In this document: positions 12,638 through 54,195 of the stretch, piece by piece
Layout: each line of letters begins with the position of its first letter
Position numbering within the stretch: position 1 is the stretch's first letter
Origin: a virus
Lineage: Duplodnaviria > Heunggongvirae > Uroviricota > Caudoviricetes
IMG/VR virus record: IMGVR_UViG_3300039008_000325
Span: 49,372 to 113,371 of that record
DNA: 64,000 nucleotides
Direction: 5' to 3' (one strand)
The notes under the pieces: generated by a model
What the model saw: the letters and a program-made list of their open reading frames with translations, nothing else
Databases searched by the model: none
Told to the model about the DNA's origin: nothing
Position numbers and translations under genes: made by a program

Positions 12638-14656
12638 ATGCCAAAATATCAAAGTGCTGGAGTTTACGTAAGAGAGATAGACCAAAGTTCATTCGTTGAA
12701 ACAAGTGGTGGTTCTTATGTAGGTGGTGTTATTAAATCAGCTTGGGGACCGGTTGATGACATAGTATTGTTAGGTAGTATTAATGACTACGCAACAGTAT
12801 TTGGTACACCAGATCTATATGAAAGTAAATATTTTTACGCAAGTAAATCTATTTTAAGTGGAACAAATTTATACAACATCGTAAGAGTTGTTGATGAAAA
12901 TGCAAAAAATGCTACAACTAAACAAAATTATAGCTACACTGTAGATTTAACTACTGTAGTTGGTACGTTTGAAGTTGGTGAAACTGTATCAGGTGGAACG
13001 TCTGGGGCAACAGGTGTAATCGTAAGTATCGATGGTGATACATTATCATTACAAGAAGTTGTTGGTAGATTTGTTGATACAGAAACCGTAACAGGTGGTA
13101 CATCAGCAGCTACAGGTGACGTATCTGGTCAACCTTCATTCGATTATCAAATATTTATATCAAATATTGTTGGTGATTATGAAGTTGGTGAAACTGTAAC
13201 AGGTGGTACATCAGGATCAACTGGAGAATTAATTGAATTATTAAAAGAAGATGATAAAGATTACATGGTACTTAGAAGTGAAGGCATCTTCCAAGTAGGT
13301 GAAGTATTAACTGGTGGTACATCAGCAGCTACTTCTACATCTGATTCAGTAACACAAATTAACTTCTTTAATGCTGGTATCTTAATTAAAAATAATACAG
13401 ATTTTGAAAAACTTGCTTCAAAACCATTTAAATTTATTGCAGCTTATCCAGGTGAAATTGGAAATAATATTGGTTTATCAATATGTGATAAAGATTCATA
13501 CGCTAACTGGTCATATTCAGATTTATTTGATACTGCTCCAGACGAAGGTGAATTTCATATAGTTGTTATTGATACTGTTGGTAATTTTTATAATTCTCAA
13601 AAAGATAACGTTTTAGAAACGTTTGCATATGTAACTAAAACACCAGGTTCAATTGATGAACAAGGTCAAGTATCTTATTATAAAGAAGTATTAAATACAC
13701 AATCTGCTTATGTTTATGCAGGTGATATTGATTTTGAATCAACTGACTTTAATACATTAATCAATCTATTTAAAGGTTATAATGACAACTTAGCAATCGC
13801 AGATGGTACTATTGTTAATGGATATAGCTTATTAGCTGATGTTGATAGAGTTAGATTAGATTATGTTAGTATGATGGATTATAATACAACAATTACTAAT
13901 TCAGTAATCGCTAACGTTGCTGAAGTTAGAAAAGATTGTATAGTATTTGCTTCTCCTGAATTAAGTGATGTACAAGCTGCAGATCCTAAAACAGATGTTA
14001 AAACTTGGGGTGATTCAGTTACATATTCATCATATGTGTTCTTAACTTCAAACTGGTTATATGTATTAGATACATTTAATAATACAAATGTATGGGTACC
14101 TGATAATGGTGAAATTATTAGAGGTAGATGTGCTGTAGATACTAATCAAGAAGTTTGGTATTCACAAATGGGATACACAAAAGGTATTTTACAAAACGTA
14201 ATTCAAACTGCTTGGAATCCAGATAAAACCGCTAGAGATCTTTTAACACAAGCAAGTATTAACCCTGTATTTACAGAAATTGGAACAGGTACATTATTAC
14301 TTGGTGATAGAACTCACTTATCTAGAGCTAGTTATTTAAGACAACAAGGTGTTAGAAATATGTTTAATAGTATTGAAACATCTATTAGTCAATTTGCTAA
14401 ATCAATTATCGGTGAATTCAACAATGAAAGAACTAGATTAGAATTTACATTAAAAGTAACTAAGTTTATGAATGAACTATTATCTAGAGAAGCTTTTAGA
14501 GACTTTAGAGTAATTTGTGATTCATCTAATAATACTGAACAAGTAATTGCTGAACAAGGTTTTGTAGCCTTAGTTAAAGTGTTACCTAATTCAAGTGTTA
14601 ACTGGGTTGAACTTACTTTTACACCAGTTGCATTTTCTAGTCAACTAGATAGTTAA
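12638..14656 (+). CDS. tail sheath protein (T4 gp18-like)
   Basis: N-terminal SAGVYVREIDQSS matches the sheath hallmark PGVYVxExD. 672 aa against 659 aa for T4 gp18. Carries four GETVTGGTSGATG-type insertion repeats. Confidence 0.88.
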   Translation: MPKYQSAGVYVREIDQSSFVETSGGSYVGGVIKSAWGPVDDIVLLGSINDYATVFGTPDLYESKYFYASKSILSGTNLYNIVRVVDENAKNATTKQNYSYTVDLTTVVGTFEVGETVSGGTSGATGVIVSIDGDTLSLQEVVGRFVDTETVTGGTSAATGDVSGQPSFDYQIFISNIVGDYEVGETVTGGTSGSTGELIELLKEDDKDYMVLRSEGIFQVGEVLTGGTSAATSTSDSVTQINFFNAGILIKNNTDFEKLASKPFKFIAAYPGEIGNNIGLSICDKDSYANWSYSDLFDTAPDEGEFHIVVIDTVGNFYNSQKDNVLETFAYVTKTPGSIDEQGQVSYYKEVLNTQSAYVYAGDIDFESTDFNTLINLFKGYNDNLAIADGTIVNGYSLLADVDRVRLDYVSMMDYNTTITNSVIANVAEVRKDCIVFASPELSDVQAADPKTDVKTWGDSVTYSSYVFLTSNWLYVLDTFNNTNVWVPDNGEIIRGRCAVDTNQEVWYSQMGYTKGILQNVIQTAWNPDKTARDLLTQASINPVFTEIGTGTLLLGDRTHLSRASYLRQQGVRNMFNSIETSISQFAKSIIGEFNNERTRLEFTLKVTKFMNELLSREAFRDFRVICDSSNNTEQVIAEQGFVALVKVLPNSSVNWVELTFTPVAFSSQLDS

Positions 14657-14680
14657 TATATAAATTATATTAGTAATTTA

Positions 14681-14711
14681 AGAGCTATATAATTTTATAT
14701 AGCTCTTTTTA
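14681..14711 (+). terminator. intrinsic terminator
   Basis: AGAGCTATAT-AATTTT-ATATAGCTCT followed by TTTTTATTT. Confidence 0.7.
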
Positions 14712-14741
14712 TTTGATTTATTACTAAAAATAAGGTATAAT

Positions 14742-14761
14742 AATTATAAATAACTATATAA
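14742..14761 (+). promoter_or_regulatory. late promoter cassette (1 mismatch)
   Basis: AATTATAAATAACTATATAA. Confidence 0.55.
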
Positions 14762-14785
14762 TATAGTAACAAAAGGTTAGGAAAA

Positions 14786-15034
14786 ATGGATAAAATATTA
14801 GAGAAAAAAGCACCAACAAAAAATCATAGATATAAAGATCACTTAGTTAGTTATGATGGTGGATTATATTCAGTTTATAATTTAAGTCAAACACAAGTAA
14901 TATTAGAAACAGATAATTATGATAGAGTTATAAAATTTATTGATAAATTAGATAAAGATATTCAAAAGAAAAAGAAAAAATCTATGAAAGAAGATAATGA
15001 TATATTAGAAAGAATGAAATCATTTCTAAACTAA
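14786..15034 (+). CDS. hypothetical protein
   Basis: 82 aa, GGTTAGGAAAAATG SD. Confidence 0.4.
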   Translation: MDKILEKKAPTKNHRYKDHLVSYDGGLYSVYNLSQTQVILETDNYDRVIKFIDKLDKDIQKKKKKSMKEDNDILERMKSFLN

Positions 15035-15082
15035 TATTGAAAATAATAATTAAATAAATATATTAATGTTATTAAAAGATGA

Positions 15083-15159
15083 CGCGGGATAGAGCAGTCG
15101 GGTAGCTCAACAGGCTCATAACCTGTAGGTCGCTGGTTCAAATCCAGCTCCCGCAACCA
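15083..15159 (+). tRNA. tRNA-Met (CAU), initiator-like
   Basis: cloverleaf with anticodon loop CTCATAA and acceptor C1:A72 mismatch (bacterial initiator hallmark). Confidence 0.75.
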
Positions 15160-15214
15160 AAAGATAGTTGATTTCATTTTTAAAAGTTATATAATATAAT
15201 TATAGAGGAAATTA

Positions 15215-15267
15215 CTATTAACCTTTTATAAATAATTATACAGTAACTATTTATAAAAGGTTAATAG
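15215..15267 (+). promoter_or_regulatory. perfect 20-bp inverted repeat hairpin containing a late -10 box and sequestering the SD of the downstream HNH gene
   Basis: left arm CTATTAACCTTTTATAAATA (15215-15234), right arm TATTTATAAAAGGTTAATAG (15248-15267). TATAAATA at 15227-15234. AAGG SD lies in the right arm, ATG at 15268. Confidence 0.6.
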
Positions 15268-15942
15268 ATGAATTATAAAAGAATTTACAATGAAATCATA
15301 GAAAATAGAATAAATAATCCATTTAAAGGTTATACAGAAACACATCATATTTTACCTAGATCATTAGGTGGATCAGATGAAAAAGAAAATTTAGTTAAAT
15401 TGAGTGCTAGAGAACATTTCATATGTCACTTACTTTTAACTAAAATACATAAAGATGATACTATTGAACATTATAAGATGTTAAATGCATTTATTATGAT
15501 GAAAATGAATAGTAATACACAAGATAGATATTTTAATAGTTATTTATATGAAAAAATAAGAATAAAATACTCTAAAATGCAAAGTAAAAAACAATCTGGT
15601 AAAGGTAATAACCAGTATGGTAAAATGTGGATTACAAATGGAAAAGATAATAAATTAATTTATAGAGATAATTCAATACCGGTTGGTTGGAAAAAAGGTC
15701 GTAAATTAAAATCACCTAAAACAGATGCTCTAAATGAAAAATTTAGGAAAAGAAAACAAAAAACAGCATCTAAAAAATTACAAACAACTTTAATGTATGA
15801 AGAATATTATAAAATTTATTGTGAATATGGTTGGGAAAAATTTAAAGAAATAACCGATTATAAATTTTCTCAACAAAATTTAGTAATGCAGTTTAAACAT
15901 CGTGTTAAAGATTACACATCACAACGCGGTAGAAAAAGATAG
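15268..15942 (+). CDS. HNH homing endonuclease
   Basis: TETHHILPRSLGGSDEKENLVKLSAREHFICH His-Me finger; paralogue of 18388 (both begin MNYKR(I/L)YNEIIENR). Confidence 0.85.
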   Translation: MNYKRIYNEIIENRINNPFKGYTETHHILPRSLGGSDEKENLVKLSAREHFICHLLLTKIHKDDTIEHYKMLNAFIMMKMNSNTQDRYFNSYLYEKIRIKYSKMQSKKQSGKGNNQYGKMWITNGKDNKLIYRDNSIPVGWKKGRKLKSPKTDALNEKFRKRKQKTASKKLQTTLMYEEYYKIYCEYGWEKFKEITDYKFSQQNLVMQFKHRVKDYTSQRGRKR

Positions 15943-15943
15943 A

Positions 15944-16017
15944 GGGTTCATAATTCAATGGTAGAATAACCGACTTTTAATCGGTTTACCTAAGTTCGAT
16001 TCTTAGTGAACCCACCA
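15944..16017 (+). tRNA. tRNA-Lys (UUU)
   Basis: acceptor GGGTTCA/TGAACCC, anticodon stem ACCGA/TCGGT, loop CTTTTAA; starts 2 nt after the HNH stop. Confidence 0.75.
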
Positions 16018-16030
16018 AATATTTAATTGT

Positions 16031-16107
16031 ATACCTGTAGTTCAGATGGATAGAACAACAGATTTCTAATCTGTAGGTCATAGGTTCGAGTCCTATCAGG
16101 TATGCCA
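16031..16107 (+). tRNA. tRNA-Arg (UCU)
   Basis: acceptor ATACCTG/CAGGTAT, anticodon loop TTTCTAA, T-arm ATAGG-TTCGAGT-CCTAT. Confidence 0.8.
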
Positions 16108-16117
16108 GTTTTAAGAT

Positions 16118-16194
16118 GGTGTTTGTAGCTCAATTGGTAGAGTGTTTCCTTGTGATGGAAGATGTTGCGAGTTCGAGTCTCGTCAAACACCCCA
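16118..16194 (+). tRNA. tRNA-His (GUG)
   Basis: extra G-1, acceptor GTGTTTG/CAAACAC, discriminator C, loop TTGTGAT. Confidence 0.8.
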
Positions 16195-16205
16195 TTTTAA
16201 TTTGA

Positions 16206-16244
16206 GGACTTGTAGCTCAGGTGGTTAGAGCACTAGACTGATTT
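16206..16244 (+). pseudogene. 5' tRNA fragment (acceptor + D-arm + half anticodon arm, loop CTGATTT), truncated at promoter cassette
   Basis: GGACTTG-TA-GCTC-AGGTGGTTA-GAGC then breaks inside anticodon loop where AATTATAAATAATTATATAA begins. D-arm nearly identical to tRNA-Ile at 20688. Confidence 0.55.
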
Positions 16245-16247
16245 TAA

Positions 16248-16267
16248 AATTATAAATAATTATATAA
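16248..16267 (+). promoter_or_regulatory. late promoter cassette
   Basis: exact consensus; followed by AAGGAATATAATTATG leader shared with genes at 38941 and 53518. Confidence 0.65.
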
Positions 16268-16282
16268 TAAAGGAATATAATT

Positions 16283-16990
16283 ATGAATAATATAAAAATT
16301 GATGAATCTTGGAAACAAGAAAGTGGTAAATATAAATGCCCATATTGTGATAAGGAATATACTAAAAAAGGTATATGTACACATATATGGAGAAAACATA
16401 CAGAAGAAGGTTTAAATTTTACTAAATTACACGATCCAAATAAAGGTTTTAAAGATGGTACTAGAAAAGCTTGGAATAAAGGTTTAACTAAAGAAACTGA
16501 CACAAGGTTAGAAGAAAAAAGTATTAAGTTGCGAGAAAAATTTAATAGTGGTGAATTAGAGGGTTATTGGAAAAATAAAAAACATTCTAACTCTACAATA
16601 ATAAAGATGAAAAATAATAAAAATTGTGGAGGATATAGAAAAGGGTCAGGTAGAGGTAAATCTGGCTGGTATAAAAATTATTATTGTGATAGTAGTTGGG
16701 AATTAGCTTTTGTAATTTATAATTTAGAAAACAATATAAAATTTGAAAGAAATACTAAAAAATTTAGTTATATATTTAATAGAAAAAAACATGATTATAT
16801 GCCGGATTTTATTATCAATAACGAATATATAGAAATAAAAGGTTACATAACTGAACAATGGAAAGCTAAAAAAGAACAATTTCCACATAAGTTAAAAACA
16901 TTATATCAAAAAGATATACAAAAATATTTAGATTATGTGATTAATAAATATGGAAAAGATTTTATTAAATTATACGGCTCTCTAGCTTAG
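16283..16990 (+). CDS. putative homing endonuclease: N-terminal C2H2-like zinc finger, NUMOD3-like repeats, C-terminal PD-(D/E)xK-like domain
   Basis: CPYCDKEYTKKGICTHIWRKH; WNKGLTKETD and KHSNSTIIKM NUMOD3-like; C-terminal H.Y.PDF...IEIKG; last codons overlap tRNA-Phe. Confidence 0.5.
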   Translation: MNNIKIDESWKQESGKYKCPYCDKEYTKKGICTHIWRKHTEEGLNFTKLHDPNKGFKDGTRKAWNKGLTKETDTRLEEKSIKLREKFNSGELEGYWKNKKHSNSTIIKMKNNKNCGGYRKGSGRGKSGWYKNYYCDSSWELAFVIYNLENNIKFERNTKKFSYIFNRKKHDYMPDFIINNEYIEIKGYITEQWKAKKEQFPHKLKTLYQKDIQKYLDYVINKYGKDFIKLYGSLA

Positions 16991-17051
16991 TTGGTCTGAG
17001 CGCTCGATTGAAGCTCGAGAGGTTCTGGTTCGAATCCAGGGGGAGCCACCA
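16976..17051 (+). tRNA. tRNA-Phe (GAA)
   Basis: acceptor GGCTCTC/GGGAGCC, anticodon stem CTCGA/TCGAG, loop TTGAAGC. Confidence 0.75.
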
Positions 17052-17052
17052 A

Positions 17053-17355
17053 ATGAAAATAAAAAAATTAATACTAATATTATTCCTACTAATTAGTAAT
17101 ACGACATACGCAAGTAATTTCATATCAGATAAAGATAATAAAGTAGTAGGTGTTAAAACAGATACAATTAGGTTAGATAAAAGATTATTATATAGAGCAG
17201 AATACAACCATATGAAAGAACGTACACAAACGAGTGCTGCTTACGAGATTAATAAAAATAATTACATAATAATATACTTAATACATAGTAAAGAGAACAA
17301 TATGTTTGAAGAATTTGATGATACTATTAAGATTAGGTATAAATATAAATTTTAG
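17053..17355 (+). CDS. small secreted protein (signal peptide MKIKKLILILFLLISNTTYA)
   Basis: ORF-track call starts inside tRNA-Phe. The in-frame ATG at 17053 gives a canonical signal peptide and uses GGGGGAG of the tRNA 3' end as SD. Confidence 0.45.
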   Translation: MKIKKLILILFLLISNTTYASNFISDKDNKVVGVKTDTIRLDKRLLYRAEYNHMKERTQTSAAYEINKNNYIIIYLIHSKENNMFEEFDDTIKIRYKYKF

Positions 17356-17431
17356 GGGATGTAGCTCAGTTGATTAGAGCACTGCACTGTCACTGCAGAG
17401 GTCGCCGGTTTGAGCCCGGTCATTCCCGCCA
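17355..17431 (+). tRNA. tRNA-Asp (GUC)
   Basis: 77 nt, anticodon stem CTGCA/TGCAG, loop CTGTCAC. Confidence 0.8.
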
Positions 17432-17437
17432 GTTTAA

Positions 17438-17514
17438 GTAGGGGTAGTAGCAATTGGTTAAAACAGTTGACTCCAAATCTTCAGTTCTAGGTTCGAGTCC
17501 TAGCCCCTATGCCA
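17438..17514 (+). tRNA. tRNA-like gene with canonical acceptor and T-arm but non-canonical D/anticodon arms (identity unresolved)
   Basis: 77 nt; acceptor GTAGGGG/CCCCTAT, T-arm CTAGG-TTCGAGT-CCTAG, CCA encoded; no 5-bp anticodon stem could be drawn by hand. Confidence 0.4.
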
Positions 17515-17521
17515 AGATAAT

Positions 17522-17598
17522 GTATCTGTAGCTCAATTGGATAGAGCACTTGGCTACGAACTAAGAGGTTGTGGGTTCGAGTCCTACCAGGTATGCCA
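17522..17598 (+). tRNA. tRNA-Arg (ACG)
   Basis: anticodon stem CTTGG/CTAAG (2 GU), loop CTACGAA, T-arm GTGGG-TTCGAGT-CCTAC. Confidence 0.75.
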
Positions 17599-17630
17599 GT
17601 TAATATAAAACATTTGAAAAGGGAGATAAA

Positions 17631-17867
17631 ATGTTTTTTAAGAGTAGGAAAAGATTTAAAATAGGTACATATTACATTGATGAAAGAAGTAGATTAAGAA
17701 TACTTTGGTTAGATGAGATATGTGAGAAATCAATATTAAAGTTTAATTTTTGCAAATTTATGATGGATAATAAAATCATAACATCAAGTAGTGTAGTGTT
17801 ATTTGATAAGCAAACAAAATATACAGTAAAAGGTGATTGTATAGTAAATTATATACAATCAATATAA
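17631..17867 (+). CDS. hypothetical protein
   Basis: 78 aa, AAAGGGAGATAAAATG SD. Confidence 0.4.
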   Translation: MFFKSRKRFKIGTYYIDERSRLRILWLDEICEKSILKFNFCKFMMDNKIITSSSVVLFDKQTKYTVKGDCIVNYIQSI

Positions 17868-17872
17868 GTTGT

Positions 17873-17946
17873 TACCCCGTCGTCTAATGGTAAGACATGT
17901 GTTTTTGGTGCACATTATCGAGGTTCGAATCCTTGCGGGGTAACCA
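17873..17946 (+). tRNA. tRNA-Gln (UUG)
   Basis: acceptor TACCCCG/CGGGGTA, loop TTTTGGT. Confidence 0.75.
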
Positions 17947-17950
17947 ATTA

Positions 17951-18026
17951 GGGGCCTTAGCTCATCTGGGAGAGCGCTACATTTGCAATGTAGAGGTGGC
18001 GAGTTCGAGTCTCGCAGGCTCCACCA
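17951..18026 (+). tRNA. tRNA-Ala (UGC)
   Basis: acceptor GGGGCCT, anticodon stem CTACA/TGTAG, loop TTTGCAA. Confidence 0.8.
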
Positions 18027-18045
18027 AATTTGAAGGAGAGATAAT

Positions 18046-18291
18046 ATGGTACATCAAGCTCAATTAGTACCAAATATTAATAAAAAAGTTATTAAATTAT
18101 ATAGTCCAGATGGTGATGATGTAAATACAGTATTCTTAAGTTCAATACATGATGTAGTTGAACAACATTTAAAACATGTAGGTGATTTTTATTATGTTAA
18201 TTTTAAAAATAAAACACAAACAGAAGTAAATAAAGAATCATATGATTTAGTTAAAGAGTTATTATTTAAAGATTGTGAATACGTAAATTAA
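18046..18291 (+). CDS. hypothetical protein
   Basis: 81 aa, GAAGGAGAGATAATATG SD. Confidence 0.4.
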   Translation: MVHQAQLVPNINKKVIKLYSPDGDDVNTVFLSSIHDVVEQHLKHVGDFYYVNFKNKTQTEVNKESYDLVKELLFKDCEYVN

Positions 18292-18347
18292 GCAGGTGTA
18301 GTATAATGGCTATTATTACAGTCTTCCAAACTGAGGATAGGAGTTCG
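18292..18347 (+). pseudogene. 5' tRNA fragment (acceptor to mid T-loop, anticodon region CTTCCAAAC), truncated at promoter cassette
   Basis: GCAGGTG-TA-... AGGAGTTCG then CTAAAATTATAAATAATTATATAA; no matching 3' acceptor strand downstream. Confidence 0.45.
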
Positions 18348-18351
18348 CTAA

Positions 18352-18371
18352 AATTATAAATAATTATATAA
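18352..18371 (+). promoter_or_regulatory. late promoter cassette
   Basis: exact consensus 17 nt before ATG 18388. Confidence 0.65.
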
Positions 18372-18387
18372 TAGGAGTTATATAATT

Positions 18388-18957
18388 ATGAACTATAAAA
18401 GACTTTACAATGAAATAATAGAAAATAGAAAACAAAACCCAATTAAAGGCTATACTGAAAAACATCATATTATACCAAGAAGCCTAAATGGAACTGATGA
18501 GAAAGAAAACTTAGTTAATCTAACAGCTAGAGAACATTTCATTTGCCATTATTTACTAACTAAAATGTATGATAAAAGAACAAACAATCATTATAAATTA
18601 GTTTGTGCATTTAATATGATGAATATGAGTGGAGAATATCACACAAGGTATTTTAACAGTTATTTATATGAAGCAAATAAAATACAATTTTCTAAATTAC
18701 AAAGTAAAAACCAAAAAGGTCAAAAAAATTCTCAATTTGGTAAAATGTGGATTACTAATGGAAAAGATAATAAAAAAATTCGAAAAGATGAAATTATTCC
18801 TGAAGGTTTTAGAAAGGGTAGGGTCATACCTAAAGAAATAAAAGAAAAAATAAGAAAATCTATGAAAGGTGTTGGTGTTGGTCGTGTTCGAAGTGATAAA
18901 ACAAAAGCAAAAATAAGTCGAACATTGAAATTGAGACACAGATCAATAAATTTATAG
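18388..18957 (+). CDS. HNH homing endonuclease
   Basis: TEKHHIIPRSLNGTDEKENLVNLTAREHFICH; stop overlaps first nt of tRNA-Ser. Confidence 0.85.
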   Translation: MNYKRLYNEIIENRKQNPIKGYTEKHHIIPRSLNGTDEKENLVNLTAREHFICHYLLTKMYDKRTNNHYKLVCAFNMMNMSGEYHTRYFNSYLYEANKIQFSKLQSKNQKGQKNSQFGKMWITNGKDNKKIRKDEIIPEGFRKGRVIPKEIKEKIRKSMKGVGVGRVRSDKTKAKISRTLKLRHRSINL

Positions 18958-19044
18958 GAGCGATGTCTGAGTGGTTTAAGGTGCTTCCCTGCTAAGGAAG
19001 TGTAGTGAAAGCTACCGCAGGTTCGAATCCTGCTCGTTCCGCCA
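18957..19044 (+). tRNA. tRNA-Ser (GCU)
   Basis: type II tRNA, long variable arm, anticodon stem CTTCC/GGAAG, loop CTGCTAA. Confidence 0.75.
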
Positions 19045-19046
19045 TT

Positions 19047-19120
19047 GAGCTATTGTCCGAGTAGTTAGGTGATAGTCTGCAAAACTATTTACATTGGTGC
19101 AAATCCAATATAGCTCTCCA
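19047..19120 (+). tRNA. tRNA-Cys (GCA)
   Basis: acceptor GAGCTAT/ATAGCTC, stem ATAGT/ACTAT, loop CTGCAAA. Confidence 0.75.
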
Positions 19121-19137
19121 TAATTTAATACAGTTTA

Positions 19138-19225
19138 GCTGGGGTGGTGGAATTGGTATACACGCTAGTCTTAGGAACTAGTTTTCAGAAATGATTTATG
19201 GGTTCGAATCCCATCTCCAGCACCA
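19138..19225 (+). tRNA. tRNA-Leu (UAG)
   Basis: type II, anticodon stem CTAGT/ACTAG, loop CTTAGGA. Confidence 0.75.
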
Positions 19226-19277
19226 TAAACTATTGTTGAATTATGATAAAATTACATTTAAAATGTTAATACATTTA

Positions 19278-19362
19278 GGAAGAGAGGCGAGTGGTTAGCA
19301 AGTGCACTTGAAATGCATCAGAGGTCAAACTCCTGCAGGTTCGAATCCTGTCTCTTCCGCCA
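19278..19362 (+). tRNA. tRNA-Ser (UGA)
   Basis: type II, GGAAGAG... loop CTTGAAA, T-arm CAGG-TTCGAAT-CCTG. Confidence 0.75.
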
Positions 19363-19382
19363 TTATTTTAAGGAGAGTTAAA

Positions 19383-19757
19383 ATGAAAAAAAGATTAGGT
19401 TTCGTAAGTAATAGTTCAAGTAGTTCATTTGTAGTTTGGGGTATTCAATTAGATACTTGTGAAGATAAACTAAAAGAAAAATGTACTGAACAATTGTTCA
19501 AAAGATTATATGATGAACAAGAAGAATATATAAAAGAAGATTTAGTTGAAGAATTATATGATTGGACTGAAGATGATGGATTAGTTGCTAATGATGATGA
19601 ATCAGGCTATATCCAAATAGGTTTATATGCTGAAAAAATGAAAGATGATGAGACATTAAAACAATATAAAGAAAAAGTTCTTCAAAAATTAATAGAAAAA
19701 GGTATAAAAGCTAAATATGAAGATATCCATTGGATAGAAGAAGTTTCATATTGCTAA
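19383..19757 (+). CDS. small acidic protein, MKKRLGFVSNSSSSSF family member 1
   Basis: AAGGAGAGTTAAAATG SD immediately after tRNA-Ser. ORF-track N-terminal extension would overlap the tRNA. C-terminus rich in D/E. Confidence 0.6.
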   Translation: MKKRLGFVSNSSSSSFVVWGIQLDTCEDKLKEKCTEQLFKRLYDEQEEYIKEDLVEELYDWTEDDGLVANDDESGYIQIGLYAEKMKDDETLKQYKEKVLQKLIEKGIKAKYEDIHWIEEVSYC

Positions 19758-19759
19758 CA

Positions 19760-19836
19760 GGGGCATTAGCTCAGCTGGTTAGAGCGGTACGCTCATAACG
19801 TATAGGTCCCTGGTTCGAATCCAGGATGCCCCACCA
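19760..19836 (+). tRNA. tRNA with CAU anticodon (elongator Met or Ile2-lysidine type)
   Basis: acceptor GGGGCAT, loop CTCATAA. Confidence 0.7.
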
Positions 19837-19842
19837 AGTTAT

Positions 19843-19919
19843 GGTACTTTAGCTCAGTTGGTTAGAGCATTCGCTTCATACGTGAAAGGTCGTTGGTTCG
19901 AATCCAACAAGTACCACCA
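19843..19919 (+). tRNA. tRNA with CAU anticodon (second copy, Met/Ile2)
   Basis: acceptor GGTACTT/AAGTACC, loop TTCATAC. Confidence 0.7.
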
Positions 19920-19938
19920 TTTTAAAAGGAGAGTTAAA

Positions 19939-20364
19939 ATGAAAAAAAGATTAGGTTTTGTGAGCAATAGTAGCTCAAGTAGCTTTATTATAGGTATTGC
20001 TAAAGTTAAAGATAGAAAAAAATTAGAAGAAAAATATTCTGACATACTTAGTTGTTTAGATATTAGAACTATTCAATCTTTCGTTGATGAAAAATGGGGT
20101 GGTCTTTATGAACAAAGTGATAGATATATGCATGAATCATTTGACGGTACTGAAGTAACTATATCTAAAGATAATATTAATAAAGATGATCTTGTATTAG
20201 TGGTTGATGATTATGAAGATATTTACCCTGAAGATGATGATTGGGATATAGATTATGATAAAGATTATTATCATCCATATGAAGATAGAATTGATGAATT
20301 ATTATCAGATGATGAAGTAGTTGAACACGGTGAATTTGCTAAAGGTGCTGGTTACAACGGATAG
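19939..20364 (+). CDS. small acidic protein, MKKRLGFVSNSSSSSF family member 2
   Basis: identical SD-ATG context AAGGAGAGTTAAAATG; N-terminal 16 aa identical to member 1; C-terminus DDYEDIYPEDDDWDIDYDKDYYHPYEDRIDELLSDDE. Confidence 0.6.
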   Translation: MKKRLGFVSNSSSSSFIIGIAKVKDRKKLEEKYSDILSCLDIRTIQSFVDEKWGGLYEQSDRYMHESFDGTEVTISKDNINKDDLVLVVDDYEDIYPEDDDWDIDYDKDYYHPYEDRIDELLSDDEVVEHGEFAKGAGYNG

Positions 20365-20374
20365 GAGAGAAGTT

Positions 20375-20680
20375 ATGAAAAAAAGAAACGGTTTTGTAAG
20401 TAATAGTTCAAGTAGTAGTTTTATTTTATTTTTAGATAAAAATGAAAAGACTAAAAATAAACCACAATTCGATGGAGCACATCATTATATCTGGGAAAAA
20501 GATGATGATGGTAACTTTGAATGTGATAGTCAATACTATGTAGATATTAGAAATAAAATATCTAAAGCAAAAGAAGATAATAAACTTGTAATTGAATTTG
20601 AAACAGAAATGAATTCAGATTATGAAACAAGAGAATTATTAGACTTATTAGGTGTTGAATACATCTCATTAGATAATTAA
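20375..20680 (+). CDS. small acidic protein, MKKRLGFVSNSSSSSF family member 3
   Basis: MKKRNGFVSNSSSSSF, GGAGAGAAGTTATG SD, 4 nt after member 2 stop region. Confidence 0.55.
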   Translation: MKKRNGFVSNSSSSSFILFLDKNEKTKNKPQFDGAHHYIWEKDDDGNFECDSQYYVDIRNKISKAKEDNKLVIEFETEMNSDYETRELLDLLGVEYISLDN

Positions 20681-20687
20681 AGTTAAA

Positions 20688-20763
20688 GTCTATTAGCTCA
20701 GTTGGTTAGAGCGTACGTCTGATACACGTGAGGTCCCAAGTTCGAATCTTGGATAGACTACCA
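20688..20763 (+). tRNA. tRNA-Ile (GAU)
   Basis: acceptor GTCTATT/GGATAGAC, loop CTGATAC. Confidence 0.75.
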
Positions 20764-20770
20764 AAAATAT

Positions 20771-20857
20771 GCGTCGGTGGCTGAGCGGTCAAAGGCACCG
20801 GACTGTAAATCCGGCGGGATTATCCCTACCTAGGTTCGAATCCTAGCTGGCGCACCA
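20771..20857 (+). tRNA. tRNA-Tyr (GUA)
   Basis: type II, anticodon stem CCGGA/TCCGG, loop CTGTAAA. Confidence 0.75.
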
Positions 20858-20876
20858 AAATATCATAGAGGAGAGA

Positions 20877-21416
20877 TTGATGACTATTTTACTTAAACCG
20901 CAAGAAACATGGTTAGATTATCCAGATAATGAAAGTCTAGCTATAATAGTTTTCATGGTTGGTTGTGATAATAGATGTGTAAATTGTCAATCTCCTTTTA
21001 TGGCTGATGAAAGTAAATTAGATCTAGATAAAAAATGGCTAGATAGTAAAGAAGATTCGTTCGAATCAATTACCAATAAAATAAAAATAATATTAAATAG
21101 ATATCAAACCAATAAACTTGTTTTATCTGGTGGTGATCCTTTGTTCAAAGGAAATATCGAATTTACAAAGAAGTTATGTAAATATCTATCATTAGAAGGG
21201 ATAGATATTTGCATCTATACAGGTCACAGTATTGATTATGTAAAGAGAAATAAAGTAAAAGATTTTAAATTTGTTAAATGTGGTAAATATACACCTAGTT
21301 TAAAACAAGAATCTTTTAAAAGTGATGAAATAATGCAACTAGCTTCTTCTAATCAAAATTTTTATGATAGTGAATATAATATTATTTCAGATAAAGGATT
21401 TATAAGGTTTAAATAA
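20877..21416 (+). CDS. nrdG: anaerobic ribonucleotide reductase activating protein (radical SAM)
   Basis: CDNRCVNCQSP CxxxCxxC cluster near N-terminus, 179 aa, upstream of nrdD. Confidence 0.75.
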   Translation: MMTILLKPQETWLDYPDNESLAIIVFMVGCDNRCVNCQSPFMADESKLDLDKKWLDSKEDSFESITNKIKIILNRYQTNKLVLSGGDPLFKGNIEFTKKLCKYLSLEGIDICIYTGHSIDYVKRNKVKDFKFVKCGKYTPSLKQESFKSDEIMQLASSNQNFYDSEYNIISDKGFIRFK

Positions 21417-22102
21417 TGAAGATAACAGAAATTATTTTAAATTATATGCAATATTTAGAAAGTTATGAATATGCAAAAATTAACTATAGTGATGATATTG
21501 ATATAGTTAAGTTAGATAATGAAGGAAACACTTCAACAGTTAAAATTGATCATGTAAAAAATAGAGTTTATTTTAATGATGATTTTATATTATGGAGAAA
21601 AGAAGATTTAAATATATTTAAACATTATATAAGAAAAATGGATATATGCACTAACTATTTATGTTTCTTAGAAGATTATTTAGATCAAAAAGGTAAATTA
21701 TATATTGACACATTCACATTCAAACTAAGATACGTAATTGCATATGCTAGTGATGAAATGGATTATAATATAGTTGGTATTACTTCTGATAATAAAAGAT
21801 ATTTCGATTGTTTAGGTATTGAGATGGCTGAAATTAAAGATGAAAATATAATTAGAGCTTTTAAAGAACGTGTAGCTCGTAATGAAATATTTGACAATCA
21901 CGAAGAATATTCTGATATAGCAGAAAGAATTGAAAAAGAAAAAAATCCAATGATATTGGAAAATGAAATTATAGAAAATACATCAAAATATTTTAATAAA
22001 GCTATTCGTAGAAAAATATTAAAATTAGTTGATGATGAAACAATAACGCTTTTTAAGCACATACAACAAACTAAAATAGAAGGAAATAGTAATGAACACT
22101 AA
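21416..22102 (+). CDS. hypothetical protein inserted between nrdG and nrdD
   Basis: ATGA overlap with nrdG stop and 11-nt overlap with nrdD start; no recognised motif. Confidence 0.45.
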   Translation: MKITEIILNYMQYLESYEYAKINYSDDIDIVKLDNEGNTSTVKIDHVKNRVYFNDDFILWRKEDLNIFKHYIRKMDICTNYLCFLEDYLDQKGKLYIDTFTFKLRYVIAYASDEMDYNIVGITSDNKRYFDCLGIEMAEIKDENIIRAFKERVARNEIFDNHEEYSDIAERIEKEKNPMILENEIIENTSKYFNKAIRRKILKLVDDETITLFKHIQQTKIEGNSNEH

Positions 22103-37675: not shown

Positions 37676-38461
37676 ATGTATTATATAATTTACAAAATTA
37701 CTAACAGTTTAAATGATAAATTTTATATAGGTCAACATAGAACAAATAATTTAGAAGATGGTTATATGGGAAGTGGTTTATATATTAAAAATGCAAAGAA
37801 TAAATATAAAGAAGAATTTATTAAAATATTCAAAAAAGAAATATTAGAATATTGTGATAATTTTGATGATATGCAAATAAAAGAGGAATATTATATTAAA
37901 AATGAATATGATAATCCTCTTTGCACTAATATAAGATATGGTGGAAGTCAATCAATACATAGTGAAAAAACTAAAGAAAAGTTAAGTGAGTCACATAAGG
38001 GTAAAAAACTATCTAATGAACACAAAAATAAAATTCGTCAAGCTAATTTAGGTAAAGTTTTATCTCAAGAAACAAAAGATAAAATATCAAATTCTAAAAA
38101 ATTAAACATGACAGATGATATTAGAAAAAAGATATCAAAAGCAAGTAAAAATAGAAAAGTTTCACAAGAAACAAAAGATAAAATATCAAAAGCTAATAAA
38201 GGTAGAATTTTAGGTTCTCCATCTGAAAATACTAGGAAAAAGATATCAGATGCAACAAAAGGAAAACTTGTAAGTCAAGCCACTAAAGAAAAAATCAGTA
38301 TAGCTAGAAAAGGTTTAAAAAGATTAGATAGCACTAAATTAAAAATTTCAGAAAAACTTAAAAATAAATCAATTGAAATACATAAATGTCCTCATTGTGG
38401 TAAAGAAGGTAAAGGTCCAATTATGTTTAGATTTCATTTCCATAATTGTAAGAAGAAATAA
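37676..38461 (+). CDS. GIY-YIG homing endonuclease with NUMOD3 repeats
   Basis: YIIYKITNSLNDKFYIGQ...GYMGSG; five S..TK.KIS NUMOD3-like repeats; C-terminal CPHCG...HNC zinc finger. Confidence 0.8.
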   Translation: MYYIIYKITNSLNDKFYIGQHRTNNLEDGYMGSGLYIKNAKNKYKEEFIKIFKKEILEYCDNFDDMQIKEEYYIKNEYDNPLCTNIRYGGSQSIHSEKTKEKLSESHKGKKLSNEHKNKIRQANLGKVLSQETKDKISNSKKLNMTDDIRKKISKASKNRKVSQETKDKISKANKGRILGSPSENTRKKISDATKGKLVSQATKEKISIARKGLKRLDSTKLKISEKLKNKSIEIHKCPHCGKEGKGPIMFRFHFHNCKKK

Positions 38462-48422: not shown

Positions 48423-48450
48423 TTATAGGAGTTTATTATAGGAGTTTATT

Positions 48451-53517: not shown

Positions 53518-54195
53518 ATGAAAAGACAATATAAATATTTTTATATATATAAAATAACAAATCTAATAACAAATAAAATATACATAGGTCAAAAAAGATC
53601 TTTTAAACACCCTTCTTGTGACGGGTATATGGGAAGTGGTAAATGTTTAAAAAATTCTATAAATAAACATGGTATTGAACATTTTAAAAAAGATATTTTA
53701 GAAGAATTCGATAATGAATCACTTTTAAATGAAAGAGAAATATATTGGATTGATAAACTAGATGCTACTGATATTAATATAGGTTATAATATATCTAGAG
53801 GTGGTATAGGTGGAACTGGACACAAAGGTTGTAAACATTCTAAAGAATCCAGAGATAAAATGTCTAAAAAATTAAAAGGTAGAACTGCATGGAATAAAGG
53901 TAAAAAATTACCACCTATGTCTGATGAACAAAAAGAAAAAAGAAGAATAAAAGCTCAAGGTAAAAAACATTATCATAATCCATTAACATTAGAGCAAAAA
54001 TGTTTAATACCAGGAACACAACCAATTGGTTGGATTTTAGGTATGAATCCAAAATCAGTTGAAAAGAGAAGACAAACAGTATTACAAGAAAAAACATATA
54101 AGGGAAATAAACACCCTATGTATGGTAAAAAACACACTGAGCAATCTAAGAAAAAAATGTCTCTTTCTTCAAGAAAAATGGCTACAGGGAAGTAA
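53518..54195 (+). CDS. GIY-YIG homing endonuclease
   Basis: YFYIYKITNLITNKIYIGQ...GYMGSG; NUMOD3-like HSKESRDKMS. Confidence 0.8.
   Translation: MKRQYKYFYIYKITNLITNKIYIGQKRSFKHPSCDGYMGSGKCLKNSINKHGIEHFKKDILEEFDNESLLNEREIYWIDKLDATDINIGYNISRGGIGGTGHKGCKHSKESRDKMSKKLKGRTAWNKGKKLPPMSDEQKEKRRIKAQGKKHYHNPLTLEQKCLIPGTQPIGWILGMNPKSVEKRRQTVLQEKTYKGNKHPMYGKKHTEQSKKKMSLSSRKMATGK

What the first reader, a model, noticed from the sequence alone, without database searches (positions are those of the whole stretch)
16206..16283. Homing-endonuclease cassettes have landed inside the tRNA array, leaving 5' tRNA stumps
At 16206-16244 a tRNA 5' half (acceptor, D-arm, and an anticodon stem with loop CTGAT..) breaks off in the anticodon loop. 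The break is exactly where the 20-nt late-promoter cassette and a homing-endonuclease gene (16283-16990) begin. An intact tRNA-Phe follows immediately, overlapping the ORF stop. The same architecture recurs at 18292-18347, where the stump runs to mid T-loop. It is followed by the promoter, the HNH gene at 18388-18957, and tRNA-Ser overlapping the HNH stop. The third HNH gene (15268-15942) ends 2 nt before tRNA-Lys. The D-arm of the first stump is near-identical to tRNA-Ile at 20688, which suggests duplication and truncation through endonuclease-mediated homing or recombination.
Basis: seen in the sequence. Interest (0 to 1): 0.65.

Follow-up and report, generated by a model that had tools for sequence, protein, structure and literature searches.

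The report
Endonuclease genes that truncate phage tRNAs
Two selfish homing-endonuclease genes in this phage's tRNA gene cluster each sit just after the broken-off front part of a tRNA gene, most likely a scar of how they invaded; this is a clear new example of a known process, not a new kind of system.

Summary
The window is an AT-rich (26.6% GC), distantly T4-like phage with 18 tRNA genes at 15083-20857. Three endonuclease genes are embedded in that array. ARAGORN calls no tRNA at 16206 or 18292. Both stretches still score as 3'-truncated tRNAs: 17.8 bits to model position 41, and 26.8 bits to position 57, the latter a tRNA-Gly(UCC). Each is followed by the phage's late promoter, an endonuclease ORF, and an intact tRNA that the ORF's stop abuts or overlaps.

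- The "promoter cassette" is the genome-wide late promoter.
- The gene at 16283 is not HNH. It combines a zinc finger, NUMOD3-like repeats and a T7-endonuclease-I-like PD-(D/E)xK domain.
- Derivation of stump 1 from tRNA-Ile at 20687 is not supported.

No close relative of this phage exists, so the origin is argued by analogy. Homologues of both families lie mostly inside tRNA arrays. Two GenBank before/after comparisons (Kuttervirus PhaxI vs SF02; Vibrio phage SRILMA vs pv27) show the stump is the resident tRNA's 5' part. In both, the endonuclease gene arrived with a different intact tRNA of the same isoacceptor.

Verdict: a new variant of the known SegB-type association between homing endonucleases and tRNA clusters. 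Interest is moderate.

The parts
15083..20857 (+). tRNA array: 18 intact tRNA genes interspersed with small ORFs and three endonuclease genes
   Evidence: ARAGORN; Rfam tRNA hits
15215..15267 (+). Hairpin upstream of the first HNH gene. The late promoter TATAAATA (15227-15234) lies in its 5' arm and the ribosome-binding site in its 3' arm. No tRNA stump is present here.
   Evidence: Fold -22.7 kcal/mol, z=-7.1; no orphan tRNA fragment found
15268..15942 (+). HNH homing-endonuclease gene (MobD-like, 224 aa). It stops 1 nt before tRNA-Lys (15944-16017).
   Evidence: PHROG 655 'homing endonuclease' E=3e-44; Pfam HNH weak; 63% identical over 161 aa to the gene at 18388
16206..16244 (+). Stump 1: a tRNA 5' part with acceptor strand, complete D-arm, 5' anticodon stem and loop start CUGA(U). 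It breaks at about position 35/36. The isotype is Phe(GAA) or Ile(GAU) and is unresolved.
   Evidence: Rfam truncated hit 17.8 bits; nhmmer E=1.6e-4 in the window; isotype tests
16245..16282 (+). Late promoter (TATAAATA 16251-16258) plus ribosome-binding site AAGGA. This is the genome-wide consensus, not an endonuclease-specific cassette.
   Evidence: Motif counts and contexts
16283..16990 (+). Putative homing-endonuclease gene (235 aa): C2H2 zinc finger, two NUMOD3-like repeats, and a T7-endonuclease-I-like PD-(D/E)xK nuclease. The last 5 codons and the stop are encoded by tRNA-Phe.
   Evidence: Pfam; 1582 homologues; invariant C19, C22, H34, H39, E140, D175, E184, K186; PDB T7 endo I E=1e-4
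16976..17051 (+). Intact tRNA-Phe(GAA), overlapped by 15 nt by the endonuclease ORF
   Evidence: ARAGORN; Rfam 61.3 bits
18292..18347 (+). Stump 2: tRNA-Gly(UCC) positions 1 to about 57, broken inside the T-loop (GGAGTTCG|). It starts directly after the stop of ORF 18046-18291.
   Evidence: Rfam truncated hit 26.8 bits; 80-82% identity to phage tRNA-Gly genes; nearest neighbours are Gly(tcc)
18348..18387 (+). Late promoter (TATAAATA 18355-18362) plus ribosome-binding site GGAG
18388..18957 (+). HNH homing-endonuclease gene (MobD-like, 189 aa). The last base of its stop codon is base 1 of tRNA-Ser.
   Evidence: Pfam HNH 23.9 bits; PHROG 655 E=2e-46; tblastn hits to T4-like 'mobile endonuclease D'/homing endonucleases
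18957..19044 (+). Intact tRNA-Ser(GCU) abutting the HNH gene
   Evidence: ARAGORN

Best explanation
**What is there.** Three free-standing homing-endonuclease genes have colonised the phage's tRNA array. Two are MobD-like HNH genes. One is a zinc-finger/NUMOD3/PD-(D/E)xK gene. Each has the phage's own late promoter and ribosome-binding site, and each ends at or inside the 5' end of the next tRNA.

**What the stumps are.** Two of the genes are preceded by a dead 5' fragment of a tRNA gene. These fragments are recombination junctions.

**How they arose.**
1. The endonuclease, or a relative of it, cut a tRNA gene of a phage that lacked the cassette.
2. The break was resected.
3. It was repaired from a donor carrying [late promoter - endonuclease gene - intact tRNA].
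4. Repair was by homology on the right side and by an illegitimate or microhomology join on the left.
5. The resident tRNA's 3' part was thereby replaced, and its 5' part survives as the stump.

**Why it is tolerated.** The loss is tolerated because phage tRNAs are dispensable, or because the cassette supplies a replacement tRNA.

**Shown:**
- the structures in the window;
- the association of both endonuclease families with tRNA arrays;
- this exact outcome in two other phage genera.

**Inferred:**
- that the same event happened in this lineage;
- which tRNA was cut;
- the enzymes' specificities and activity.
For: **The stumps are real and are in register with the array**.

**The endonuclease genes look intact.** Catalytic residues are present.

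**The PD-(D/E)xK gene is horizontally mobile.** Its closest homologue is 62% identical, against 38% for the tail sheath.

**Both families live in tRNA arrays**.
- PD-(D/E)xK family: 53 of 61 non-redundant loci have at least 2 tRNAs within 1.5 kb. 29 of 61 have a same-strand tRNA 5' end within -60..+15 nt of the stop.
- HNH family: 17 of 28 and 7 of 28 respectively.

**Orphan 5' tRNA fragments cluster just upstream of these genes.**
- 4 of 11 fragments lie in a zone that is 2.3% of the sequence (binomial 8e-5; two of the four come from related loci).
- One more lies before a second endonuclease gene in L106.
- Rfam confirms truncated tRNAs in L009 (16.5 bits) and L011 (19.2 bits, cut in the T-loop like stump 2), and a 3' stump in L047 (14.9 bits).

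**Where readable, the stump anticodon equals the anticodon of the downstream intact tRNA.** This holds for Thr/Thr in L009, Gln/Gln in L066/67 and Ile/Ile in L104 and L106. The window's GA-/Phe(GAA) pairing is compatible.

**Direct before/after comparisons.**
- PhaxI = SF02's tRNA-Met nt 1-27, then an 808-bp insert (endonuclease gene plus a foreign tRNA-Met), then the last 7 nt.
- SRILMA = pv27's tRNA-Thr nt 1-38, then late promoter, HNH gene and a type-B tRNA-Thr.

**Precedents in the literature.**
- SegB cleaves tRNA genes at the T-psi-C motif GGTTCRANTCC and drives inheritance of the T4 tRNA region (PMC2330249; PMC13096335).
- One-sided illegitimate double-strand-break repair with microhomology joins is established in T4 (PMC2988022, citing Parker et al. 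1999).
Against: - No endonuclease-less or close relative of this phage was found, so nothing shows the event in this lineage.
- Stump 2 (Gly) is followed by tRNA-Ser, not tRNA-Gly. L011 likewise has a Phe stump before tRNA-Gly. The 'same isoacceptor' pattern does not hold for the T-loop breaks.
- The window's tRNA-Phe is not specially similar to tRNA-Phe genes next to homologous endonuclease genes. Co-transfer is therefore unproven here.
- Breakpoints differ between loci (tRNA positions about 27, 31, 35-42, 57-59).
- The L104 stump is too degenerate for Rfam.
- Endonuclease activity and target sites are untested.
- The stumps could have been imported as donor flank rather than being resident remnants.
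Confidence: 0.7

Rival explanations
1. The stumps are not remnants of this phage's own tRNA genes. They are donor DNA that travelled with the endonuclease genes, as a co-converted left flank or a portable 'left homology arm' matching the target tRNA's 5' half. The resident genes would have been replaced or were never there.
For: - In every stump locus the fragment ends only 0-18 nt before the late promoter, as if [stump-promoter-gene] were one unit.
- Before pv27 was found, SRILMA versus phiKT1024 looked exactly like this: a foreign stump next to a resident-like downstream tRNA, with the insert flanked by a GCCC repeat.
- Free-standing endonuclease genes are known to co-convert flanks (PMC2988022).
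Against: - In both cases where endonuclease-less sister phages are available, the stump equals the resident allele. It is 27/27 nt identical in PhaxI/SF02 and 37/38 in SRILMA/pv27, with flanks 95-99.8% identical.
- Stump sequences differ between loci with related endonuclease genes.
Confidence: 0.15
2. The stumps are ordinary tRNA pseudogenes produced by deletion or decay of the array, independently of the endonucleases. The endonuclease genes later settled in the free space or merely lie beside them.
For: - Orphan partial tRNA hits are common in phage tRNA arrays: 174 hits at E<=10 in about 125 loci, and several are not next to the focal endonuclease gene.
- tRNA genes are dispensable for phages.
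Against: - 5'-only fragments are strongly enriched in the 90 nt before endonuclease genes.
- In both stumps the tRNA similarity ends a few nt upstream of the promoter consensus.
- The PhaxI/SF02 and SRILMA/pv27 comparisons show truncation and insertion as a single difference between near-identical genomes.
Confidence: 0.08
3. The stumps are kept because they do something. One option is an uncleavable half-site that the endonuclease binds next to its own late promoter, giving autorepression as with I-TevI. Another is an RNA element that affects processing or translation of the endonuclease mRNA on read-through transcripts.
For: - Stump 1 retains a perfect D-arm, although a pseudogene would be free to decay.
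- Each stump lies directly against the promoter.
- Weak AU hairpins place the start codon in a stem whose 5' arm overlaps the promoter.
Against: - The first HNH gene (15268) and most homologues have no stump.
- Stumps differ in length, break point and isotype.
- L104 and L106 stumps are degenerate.
- The hairpin-forming sequence is the general late-promoter/ribosome-binding-site consensus of many genes. Folding of the stump-containing RNAs is not exceptional (z=-2.4 and -1.1).
Confidence: 0.07

Closest known systems
T4/T6 SegB, a free-standing GIY-YIG homing endonuclease in the tRNA gene cluster (PMC2330249; PMC13096335)
   Same: - It is a free-standing endonuclease gene between tRNA genes in a T4-type phage, with a predicted late promoter upstream.
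- It cleaves inside tRNA genes at the conserved T-psi-C motif, the motif in which stump 2 breaks.
- It drives replacement of a co-infecting phage's tRNA region.
- Microhomology between a tRNA 5' end and the endonuclease gene's 3' end produces junctions.
   Different: - The array genes here are HNH and PD-(D/E)xK, not GIY-YIG.
- Truncated tRNA remnants next to the gene are not described in the SegB papers read.
- Cleavage by the window's enzymes is untested.
Endonuclease/tRNA-Met locus of Kuttervirus PhaxI compared with endonuclease-less Kuttervirus SF02
   Same: - It belongs to the same protein family as the window's ORF 16283, at 27% identity by tblastn.
- It has the same layout: 5' tRNA stump, endonuclease ORF, and an intact tRNA overlapping the stop.
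- The before/after comparison shows the stump is the resident tRNA's first 27 nt.
   Different: - PhaxI has a hairpin rather than a TATAAATA promoter after the stump.
- The stump and the imported tRNA are clearly the same isoacceptor (Met). In the window the isotype of stump 1 is ambiguous.
Vibrio phage VB_VaC_SRILMA HNH/tRNA-Thr locus compared with pv27 and phiKT1024
   Same: - Its HNH protein is 48.5% identical to the window's 18388 gene.
- It has the same layout: tRNA stump, TATAAATA late promoter, HNH gene, and an intact tRNA overlapping the stop.
   Different: - Its stump breaks after the anticodon loop (position 38) and is followed by the same isoacceptor.
- The window's stump 2 breaks in the T-loop and is followed by a different tRNA (Ser).
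Illegitimate (one-sided) double-strand-break repair in T4 intron homing (Parker, Belisle & Belfort 1999, as summarised in PMC2988022)
   Same: Homology on one side only, extensive resection and microhomology junctions allow an endonuclease-bearing element to enter an ectopic site. This predicts exactly a leftover target fragment beside the element.
   Different: It was shown experimentally for the td intron with engineered substrates, not for free-standing genes in tRNA arrays.
I-Ssp6803I, a PD-(D/E)xK homing endonuclease in the tRNA-fMet group I intron of Synechocystis (from my own knowledge, not checked here)
   Same: It is a homing endonuclease with a PD-(D/E)xK fold whose target is a tRNA gene's anticodon-loop region.
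   Different: - It is intron-encoded.
- It was not among the 31 chains matched at E<=1 in the profile search of PDB chains, where the only nuclease-domain matches below E=0.01 were T7 endonuclease I chains.
- The window's protein is free-standing and has zinc-finger and NUMOD3 modules.

Membership tests
Free-standing homing endonuclease genes of T4-like phages (Seg/Mob type) | Encodes a nuclease domain of a homing-endonuclease class joined to modular DNA-binding motifs | tested here: met
   - 15268 and 18388: HNH (Pfam) and PHROG 655 'homing endonuclease', E about 1e-44 to 1e-46.
- 16283: zinc finger plus NUMOD3-like repeats plus a PD-(D/E)xK core. Homologues carry Pfam NUMOD3 and Phage_endo_I.
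Free-standing homing endonuclease genes of T4-like phages (Seg/Mob type) | Intergenic, not inside an intron or intein, same orientation as neighbours, own middle or late promoter | tested here: met
   No intron hit in 14500-21500. TATAAATA lies 24-33 nt upstream of each ATG. All features are on the + strand.
Free-standing homing endonuclease genes of T4-like phages (Seg/Mob type) | Present or absent among otherwise collinear relatives | tested here: inconclusive
   - Met for homologues: PhaxI vs SF02 and many Kutterviruses; SRILMA vs pv27, phiKT1024 and Va1.
- Not testable for this phage, because no collinear relative exists in the collections searched.
Free-standing homing endonuclease genes of T4-like phages (Seg/Mob type) | Site-specific cleavage of the endonuclease-less allele and unidirectional gene conversion | not testable with these tools
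   This needs protein purification and cleavage or co-infection assays.
HNH endonucleases (PF01844), T4 MobD-like | HNH motif (HH...N...H) present | tested here: met
   - HHILPRSLGGSDEKENLVKLSAREHFICH and HHIIPRSLNGTDEKENLVNLTAREHFICH.
- Pfam HNH scores 23.9 bits (above the 21.4 cutoff) for 18388 and 20.6 bits (just below) for 15268.
- tblastn hits are annotated 'mobile endonuclease D'.
PD-(D/E)xK nucleases, T7 endonuclease I-like (PF05367) | Catalytic E...PD...(D/E)xK residues conserved, and detectable homology to T7 endonuclease I | tested here: met
   - E140, P174, D175, E184 and K186 are invariant in 32 homologues.
- The profile hits PDB 1m0d (T7 endonuclease I) at E=1e-4.
- For the single sequence, Pfam Phage_endo_I scores only 20 bits against a cutoff of 29.1.
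tRNA (Rfam RF00005) - are the stumps tRNA genes? | Complete cloverleaf with both acceptor strands and a T-arm | tested here: not met
   - ARAGORN makes no call at either site.
- Rfam gives no full-length hit.
- Only 3'-truncated matches are found, to model positions 41 and 57 and below the 29-bit gathering score.
- No complementary 3' acceptor strands are present.
- They are gene fragments.
Group I intron-interrupted tRNA gene carrying an endonuclease ORF | Intron ribozyme core and a 3' exon completing the tRNA | tested here: not met
   - No Intron_gpI hit in 14500-21500 at E<=10.
- No 3' halves are present. Each ORF runs straight into a complete, different tRNA.
- By contrast, related locus L012 does have a group I intron (75.9 bits) in tRNA-Thr.
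SegB (GIY-YIG) tRNA-cluster endonuclease | GIY-YIG catalytic domain | tested here: not met
   The three array genes have no GIY-YIG hit. GIY-YIG genes exist elsewhere in the window, at 37676 and 53518.

The most novel reading that the evidence does not exclude
The endonuclease gene and the intact tRNA after it may form a two-gene mobile cassette. The enzyme would cut the resident tRNA of the same isoacceptor around its anticodon arm. The cassette would then overwrite that gene with a cleavage-resistant allele and leave a 5' stump.

If this is general, homing endonucleases would be a main engine of turnover in phage tRNA arrays. That includes exchange of anticodon-arm variants, which could matter for escaping host anticodon nucleases.

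A linked possibility concerns ORFs that end inside the tRNA, often at the universal U8-A9-G10 = TAG. RNase P processing would remove the stop codon there. That would tie endonuclease expression to tRNA maturation.
Probability: 0.3. Interest if true: 0.65.

Novelty: new variant of a known kind. Interest (0 to 1): 0.42.

Why it matters
It is already known that homing endonucleases live in phage tRNA clusters and can cut tRNA genes. These loci add the footprint of the invasion itself.

- A dated, readable junction is preserved: resident tRNA 5' part | promoter | endonuclease gene | replacement tRNA.
- The same junction recurs in unrelated phages and in two endonuclease families.
- One of those families is a large, uncharacterised zinc-finger/NUMOD3/PD-(D/E)xK family found mostly in tRNA arrays.

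This gives concrete, testable target predictions. It offers a mechanism for how tRNA repertoires are shuffled between phages. It also gives annotators a rule: orphan tRNA fragments next to endonuclease genes are scars, not missed genes. For this window alone the result is a well-documented example, not a new system.

Tried and rejected
1. **Split or intron-containing tRNA.** Rejected. There are no 3' halves and no intron signal, and each ORF runs into a complete, different tRNA.

2. **Stump 1 as a duplicate of tRNA-Ile 20687.** Rejected. Only the generic D-arm matches, and tRNA-Asp and tRNA-Met score higher.

3. **Promoter as a mobile cassette shared by the two genes.** Rejected. The same 20-25 nt motif and the AGGAATATAATTATG ribosome-binding-site spacing precede many unrelated late genes.

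4. **Close relatives of this phage or endonuclease-less alleles.** None found.
   - Megablast against GenBank phages found only tRNA-sized hits.
   - IMG/VR with the tail sheath found nothing.
   - Exact-protein look-up returned only identical contigs.
   - The best sheath homologues are 36-38% identical and not syntenic.
   - Exact-pattern scans for the stumps in metagenome and viral contigs found nothing.

5. **Single-protein search of IMG/VR with ORF 16283.** It found nothing. An alignment-based search was needed.

6. **Co-transfer of the window's tRNA-Phe with the endonuclease gene.** No support. It is no closer to endonuclease-linked tRNA-Phe genes than to others.

7. **Isotype of stump 1 from its body sequence.** Unresolved. 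The nearest neighbours include Phe, Ile, Met, Asp and Lys.

8. **'Stump is imported' reading of SRILMA vs phiKT1024.** I held this for a while. It was overturned when pv27 was found to carry the intact stump-type tRNA-Thr at the same locus.

9. **Ribosome-binding-site-sequestering structure involving the stumps.** Not convincing, with z=-2.4 and -1.1.
Full report
**What the window is.** The window has 26.6% G+C. It is identical to part of a 141-kb JGI metagenome contig (3300045488, Ga0495723_43156). The tail sheath at 12638-14656, T4-type baseplate and tail genes (Pfam T4-gp15_tss and Phage_TTP_2 hits), and NrdD/NrdG place it among distant T4-like myoviruses. The closest sheath in 5.8 billion proteins is only 38% identical, and its contigs are not syntenic. 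Megablast against GenBank phages found only tRNA-sized hits, and IMG/VR holds no close relative. The question 'what does the endonuclease-less allele look like?' therefore cannot be answered for this phage directly.

**Checking the observation: the tRNA calls.** ARAGORN finds 18 tRNAs at 15083-20857, all on the + strand, and none at 16206 or 18292. A normal Rfam scan also misses those two sites. Two further tests recover them.
- Cutting the sequence at the proposed breaks lets truncated matches be scored. Then 16206-16246 matches the tRNA model from position 1 to 41 (17.8 bits), and 18292-18349 matches from 1 to 57 (26.8 bits, anticodon loop CUUCCAA).
- A profile built only from the window's own 18 tRNAs finds 16207-16241 at E=1.6e-4 over the whole 64 kb. 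It finds no other orphan fragment.

**The two stumps.**
- Stump 2 is a tRNA-Gly(UCC) fragment. Its best GenBank matches are annotated phage tRNA-Gly genes at 80-82% identity over all 56 nt. Its nearest neighbours among 407 phage tRNAs are Gly(tcc). The array has no intact tRNA-Gly.
- Stump 1 has a perfect D-arm, and its loop starts CUGA(U). Its body is about equally close to Phe, Ile and Met tRNAs. It aligns in register with the downstream tRNA-Phe through U33-G34-A35. Phe(GAA) and Ile(GAU) cannot be told apart.

**No 3' halves or introns.** Neither stump has a 3' partner in the window, and there is no intron signal.

**Junction geometry.**
- Stump 1 is followed by TATAAATA at 16251 and the ATG at 16283. 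The stop lies 15 nt inside tRNA-Phe.
- Stump 2 is followed by TATAAATA at 18355 and the ATG at 18388. The last base of the stop is base 1 of tRNA-Ser.
- The third gene stops 1 nt before tRNA-Lys.

- The '20-nt late-promoter cassette' is this phage's general late promoter, consensus about ATTATAAATAATTATATAA. It is found at least 13-20 times, almost always on the + strand and upstream of ORFs, including the tail sheath. The AGGAATATAATTATG ribosome-binding-site spacing is also shared with unrelated genes.
- The gene at 16283 is not HNH. It has a C2H2 zinc finger, two NUMOD3-like repeats and a PD-(D/E)xK core related to T7 endonuclease I. The invariant residues are C19, C22, H34, H39, E140, D175, E184 and K186, and the profile hits PDB 1m0d at E=1e-4.
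- The genes at 15268 and 18388 are MobD-like HNH paralogues. They are 63% identical over 161 residues and match PHROG 655.
- The D-arm shared with tRNA-Ile(20687) is the generic bacterial D-arm. tRNA-Asp and tRNA-Met(19843) match stump 1 better, and the acceptor and anticodon stems differ.

**Related loci: both families live in tRNA arrays.**
- The PD-(D/E)xK protein has 1582 homologues at E<=1e-5. The closest is 62% identical, far closer than the phage backbone, which indicates horizontal mobility.
- In 61 non-redundant PD-(D/E)xK loci, 53 lie in tRNA arrays. In 29 of them a same-strand tRNA starts within -60..+15 nt of the stop, and 18 ORFs end inside the tRNA.
- For the HNH family the figures are 17 and 7 of 28.
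- The closest relatives of ORF 16283 sit next to tRNA-Phe and/or tRNA-Ile (L040/L047, L043, L045, L048, L049, L104, L106). More distant ones sit mostly before tRNA-Ser.
- Several ORFs stop exactly at tRNA positions 8-10, the conserved U8-A9-G10 = TAG. Examples are PhaxI, SRILMA, CBA120 and L023.

**Related loci: stumps recur.** Orphan 5'-only tRNA fragments are enriched just upstream of these genes. Four of eleven lie in a zone that is 2.3% of the sequence (binomial 8e-5; two of the four come from related loci). A further one lies before a second endonuclease gene in L106. The individual cases are:
- L009: Thr, 16.5 bits.
- L011: Phe, broken in the T-loop like stump 2, 19.2 bits.
- L066/67: Gln.
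- L104 and L106: loop CTGAT followed by TATAAATA, as in the window. L104 is too degenerate for Rfam.
- L047 and L071: 3' stumps directly after the stop.

These are documented. Where the stump's anticodon is readable, the intact tRNA after the gene has the same anticodon: Thr/Thr, Gln/Gln, Ile/Ile and Ile/Ile.

**Two direct before/after comparisons.**
1. *Kuttervirus.* The endonuclease-less phage SF02 has one intact tRNA-Met, and its flanks are 99.6-99.8% identical to PhaxI. PhaxI keeps that tRNA's first 27 nt. It then carries an 808-bp insert made of a hairpin, a homologue of ORF 16283, a different intact tRNA-Met and 63 further nt. This insert replaces 43 nt, after which the resident tRNA's last 7 nt and the flank resume.
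2. *Vibrio phages.* The endonuclease-less phage pv27 has an intact 'type A' tRNA-Thr. SRILMA keeps nt 1-38 of it (37/38 identical), followed by TATAAATA, an HNH gene 48.5% identical to the window's, and a complete 'type B' tRNA-Thr. That type B tRNA is the only tRNA at this site in phiKT1024 and Va1.

In both cases the stump is the resident gene's 5' part. The endonuclease gene arrived together with a same-isoacceptor tRNA whose anticodon stem differs.

**A related intron case.** In L012 a related HNH gene sits beside a tRNA-Thr whose anticodon loop is interrupted by a group I intron (75.9 bits). This again points at the anticodon loop as the contested site.

**Mechanism.** The best-supported account is endonuclease-initiated double-strand-break repair with homology on one side only.
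1. A tRNA gene is cut.
2. The ends are resected.
3. The right side is repaired from a donor carrying [promoter - endonuclease gene - tRNA].
4. The left end is joined illegitimately just upstream of the promoter.

This pathway is documented for T4 intron homing (PMC2988022). SegB shows that a phage endonuclease can target the T-psi-C motif of tRNA genes, the motif in which stump 2 and the L011 stump break (PMC2330249; PMC13096335).

For the window, the occurrence of this event, the identity of the cut tRNA and the enzymes' targets are inferences by analogy. Several weaknesses should be stated.
- Stump 2 (Gly) precedes a tRNA-Ser, not a tRNA-Gly.
- The window's tRNA-Phe is not specially close to other endonuclease-linked tRNA-Phe genes.
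- Break points vary between loci.

Three rivals remain possible at lower probability: the stump was imported as donor flank, the stump is an independent pseudogene, or the stump is a functional operator or RNA element.

**Comparison with what is known.** Endonuclease genes in tRNA clusters are established for T4/T6 SegB, for mycobacteriophage HNH genes and for cyanobacterial tRNA arrays (PMC2330249, PMC13096335, PMC6409571, PMC8421152). My literature searches found no description of tRNA stumps as junction scars, and none of a cassette that carries a replacement tRNA. The library is incomplete, so this is not proof of novelty. I rate the finding a new variant of a known kind, with moderate interest.

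Noticed in passing
window 19383-19757, 19939-20364, 20375-20680: Three paralogous small ORFs lie inside the tRNA array. Each begins MKKR(L/N)GFVSNSSSSSF and each follows the same GGAGAG ribosome-binding site. There are no Pfam hits and only one marginal PHROG hit of unknown function.
   Followed up: partly
window 37676-38461 and 53518-54195: Two more homing-endonuclease genes lie outside the tRNA array. Both are GIY-YIG plus NUMOD3 (Seg-like), and each is directly preceded by the same late promoter. The window therefore holds at least five endonuclease genes.
   Followed up: partly
window 15215-15267: A strong hairpin (-22.7 kcal/mol, z=-7.1) lies before the first HNH gene. The late promoter is in its 5' arm and the ribosome-binding site in its 3' arm. 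This matches the T4 I-TevI/segB design, in which only late transcripts expose the ribosome-binding site (PMC2988022).
   Followed up: partly
window 18337-18345 and 18371-18379: The 9-mer ATAGGAGTT occurs both at the end of stump 2 (T-stem) and as the ribosome-binding-site region of the HNH gene, 34 nt apart. It also occurs twice near 48425-48446. It could be microhomology or chance.
   Followed up: no
L012 3196-3511 (IMG/VR 3300022200_002864): A tRNA-Thr(UGU) is interrupted after CTTGTA by a group I intron (Rfam RF00028, 75.9 bits). It lies directly downstream of, and is overlapped by, an HNH gene 41% identical to the window's. This resembles a 'collaborative homing' arrangement. L062 (3021 onward) appears to have a similar intron in a tRNA with a CAU anticodon.
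   Followed up: partly
L008 (PhaxI), L009 (SRILMA), L130 (CBA120), L023: Endonuclease ORFs of three different families read 10 nt into the next tRNA and stop at its conserved U8-A9-G10 = TAG. RNase P cleavage at the tRNA 5' end would therefore remove the stop codon from the endonuclease mRNA.
   Followed up: partly
L040/L047 (3968-4052 in L040): ARAGORN calls a tRNA with anticodon UUA (ochre suppressor) in the tRNA array of the phage carrying the closest homologue of ORF 16283. L094 and L038 have tRNA-like sequences that may carry UCA anticodons.
   Followed up: no
L130 (CBA120) versus L008 (PhaxI) versus L129 (SF02): The same tRNA-Met site in Kutterviruses is empty in SF02, occupied by a PD-(D/E)xK-type gene in PhaxI, and occupied by an unrelated HNH gene in CBA120. 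It is an endonuclease hot spot.
   Followed up: partly
window 16976-17051: The intact tRNA-Phe has an unusual anticodon loop, UUGAAGC (U32, C38). Most other phage tRNA-Phe genes compared have CUGAAAA or CUGAAGA.
   Followed up: no
window 15083-20857: The intact tRNA set lacks Gly, Pro, Thr, Val, Asn and Glu. It has three CAU-anticodon tRNAs and two each of Arg and Ser. The only tRNA-Gly is the dead stump.
   Followed up: no
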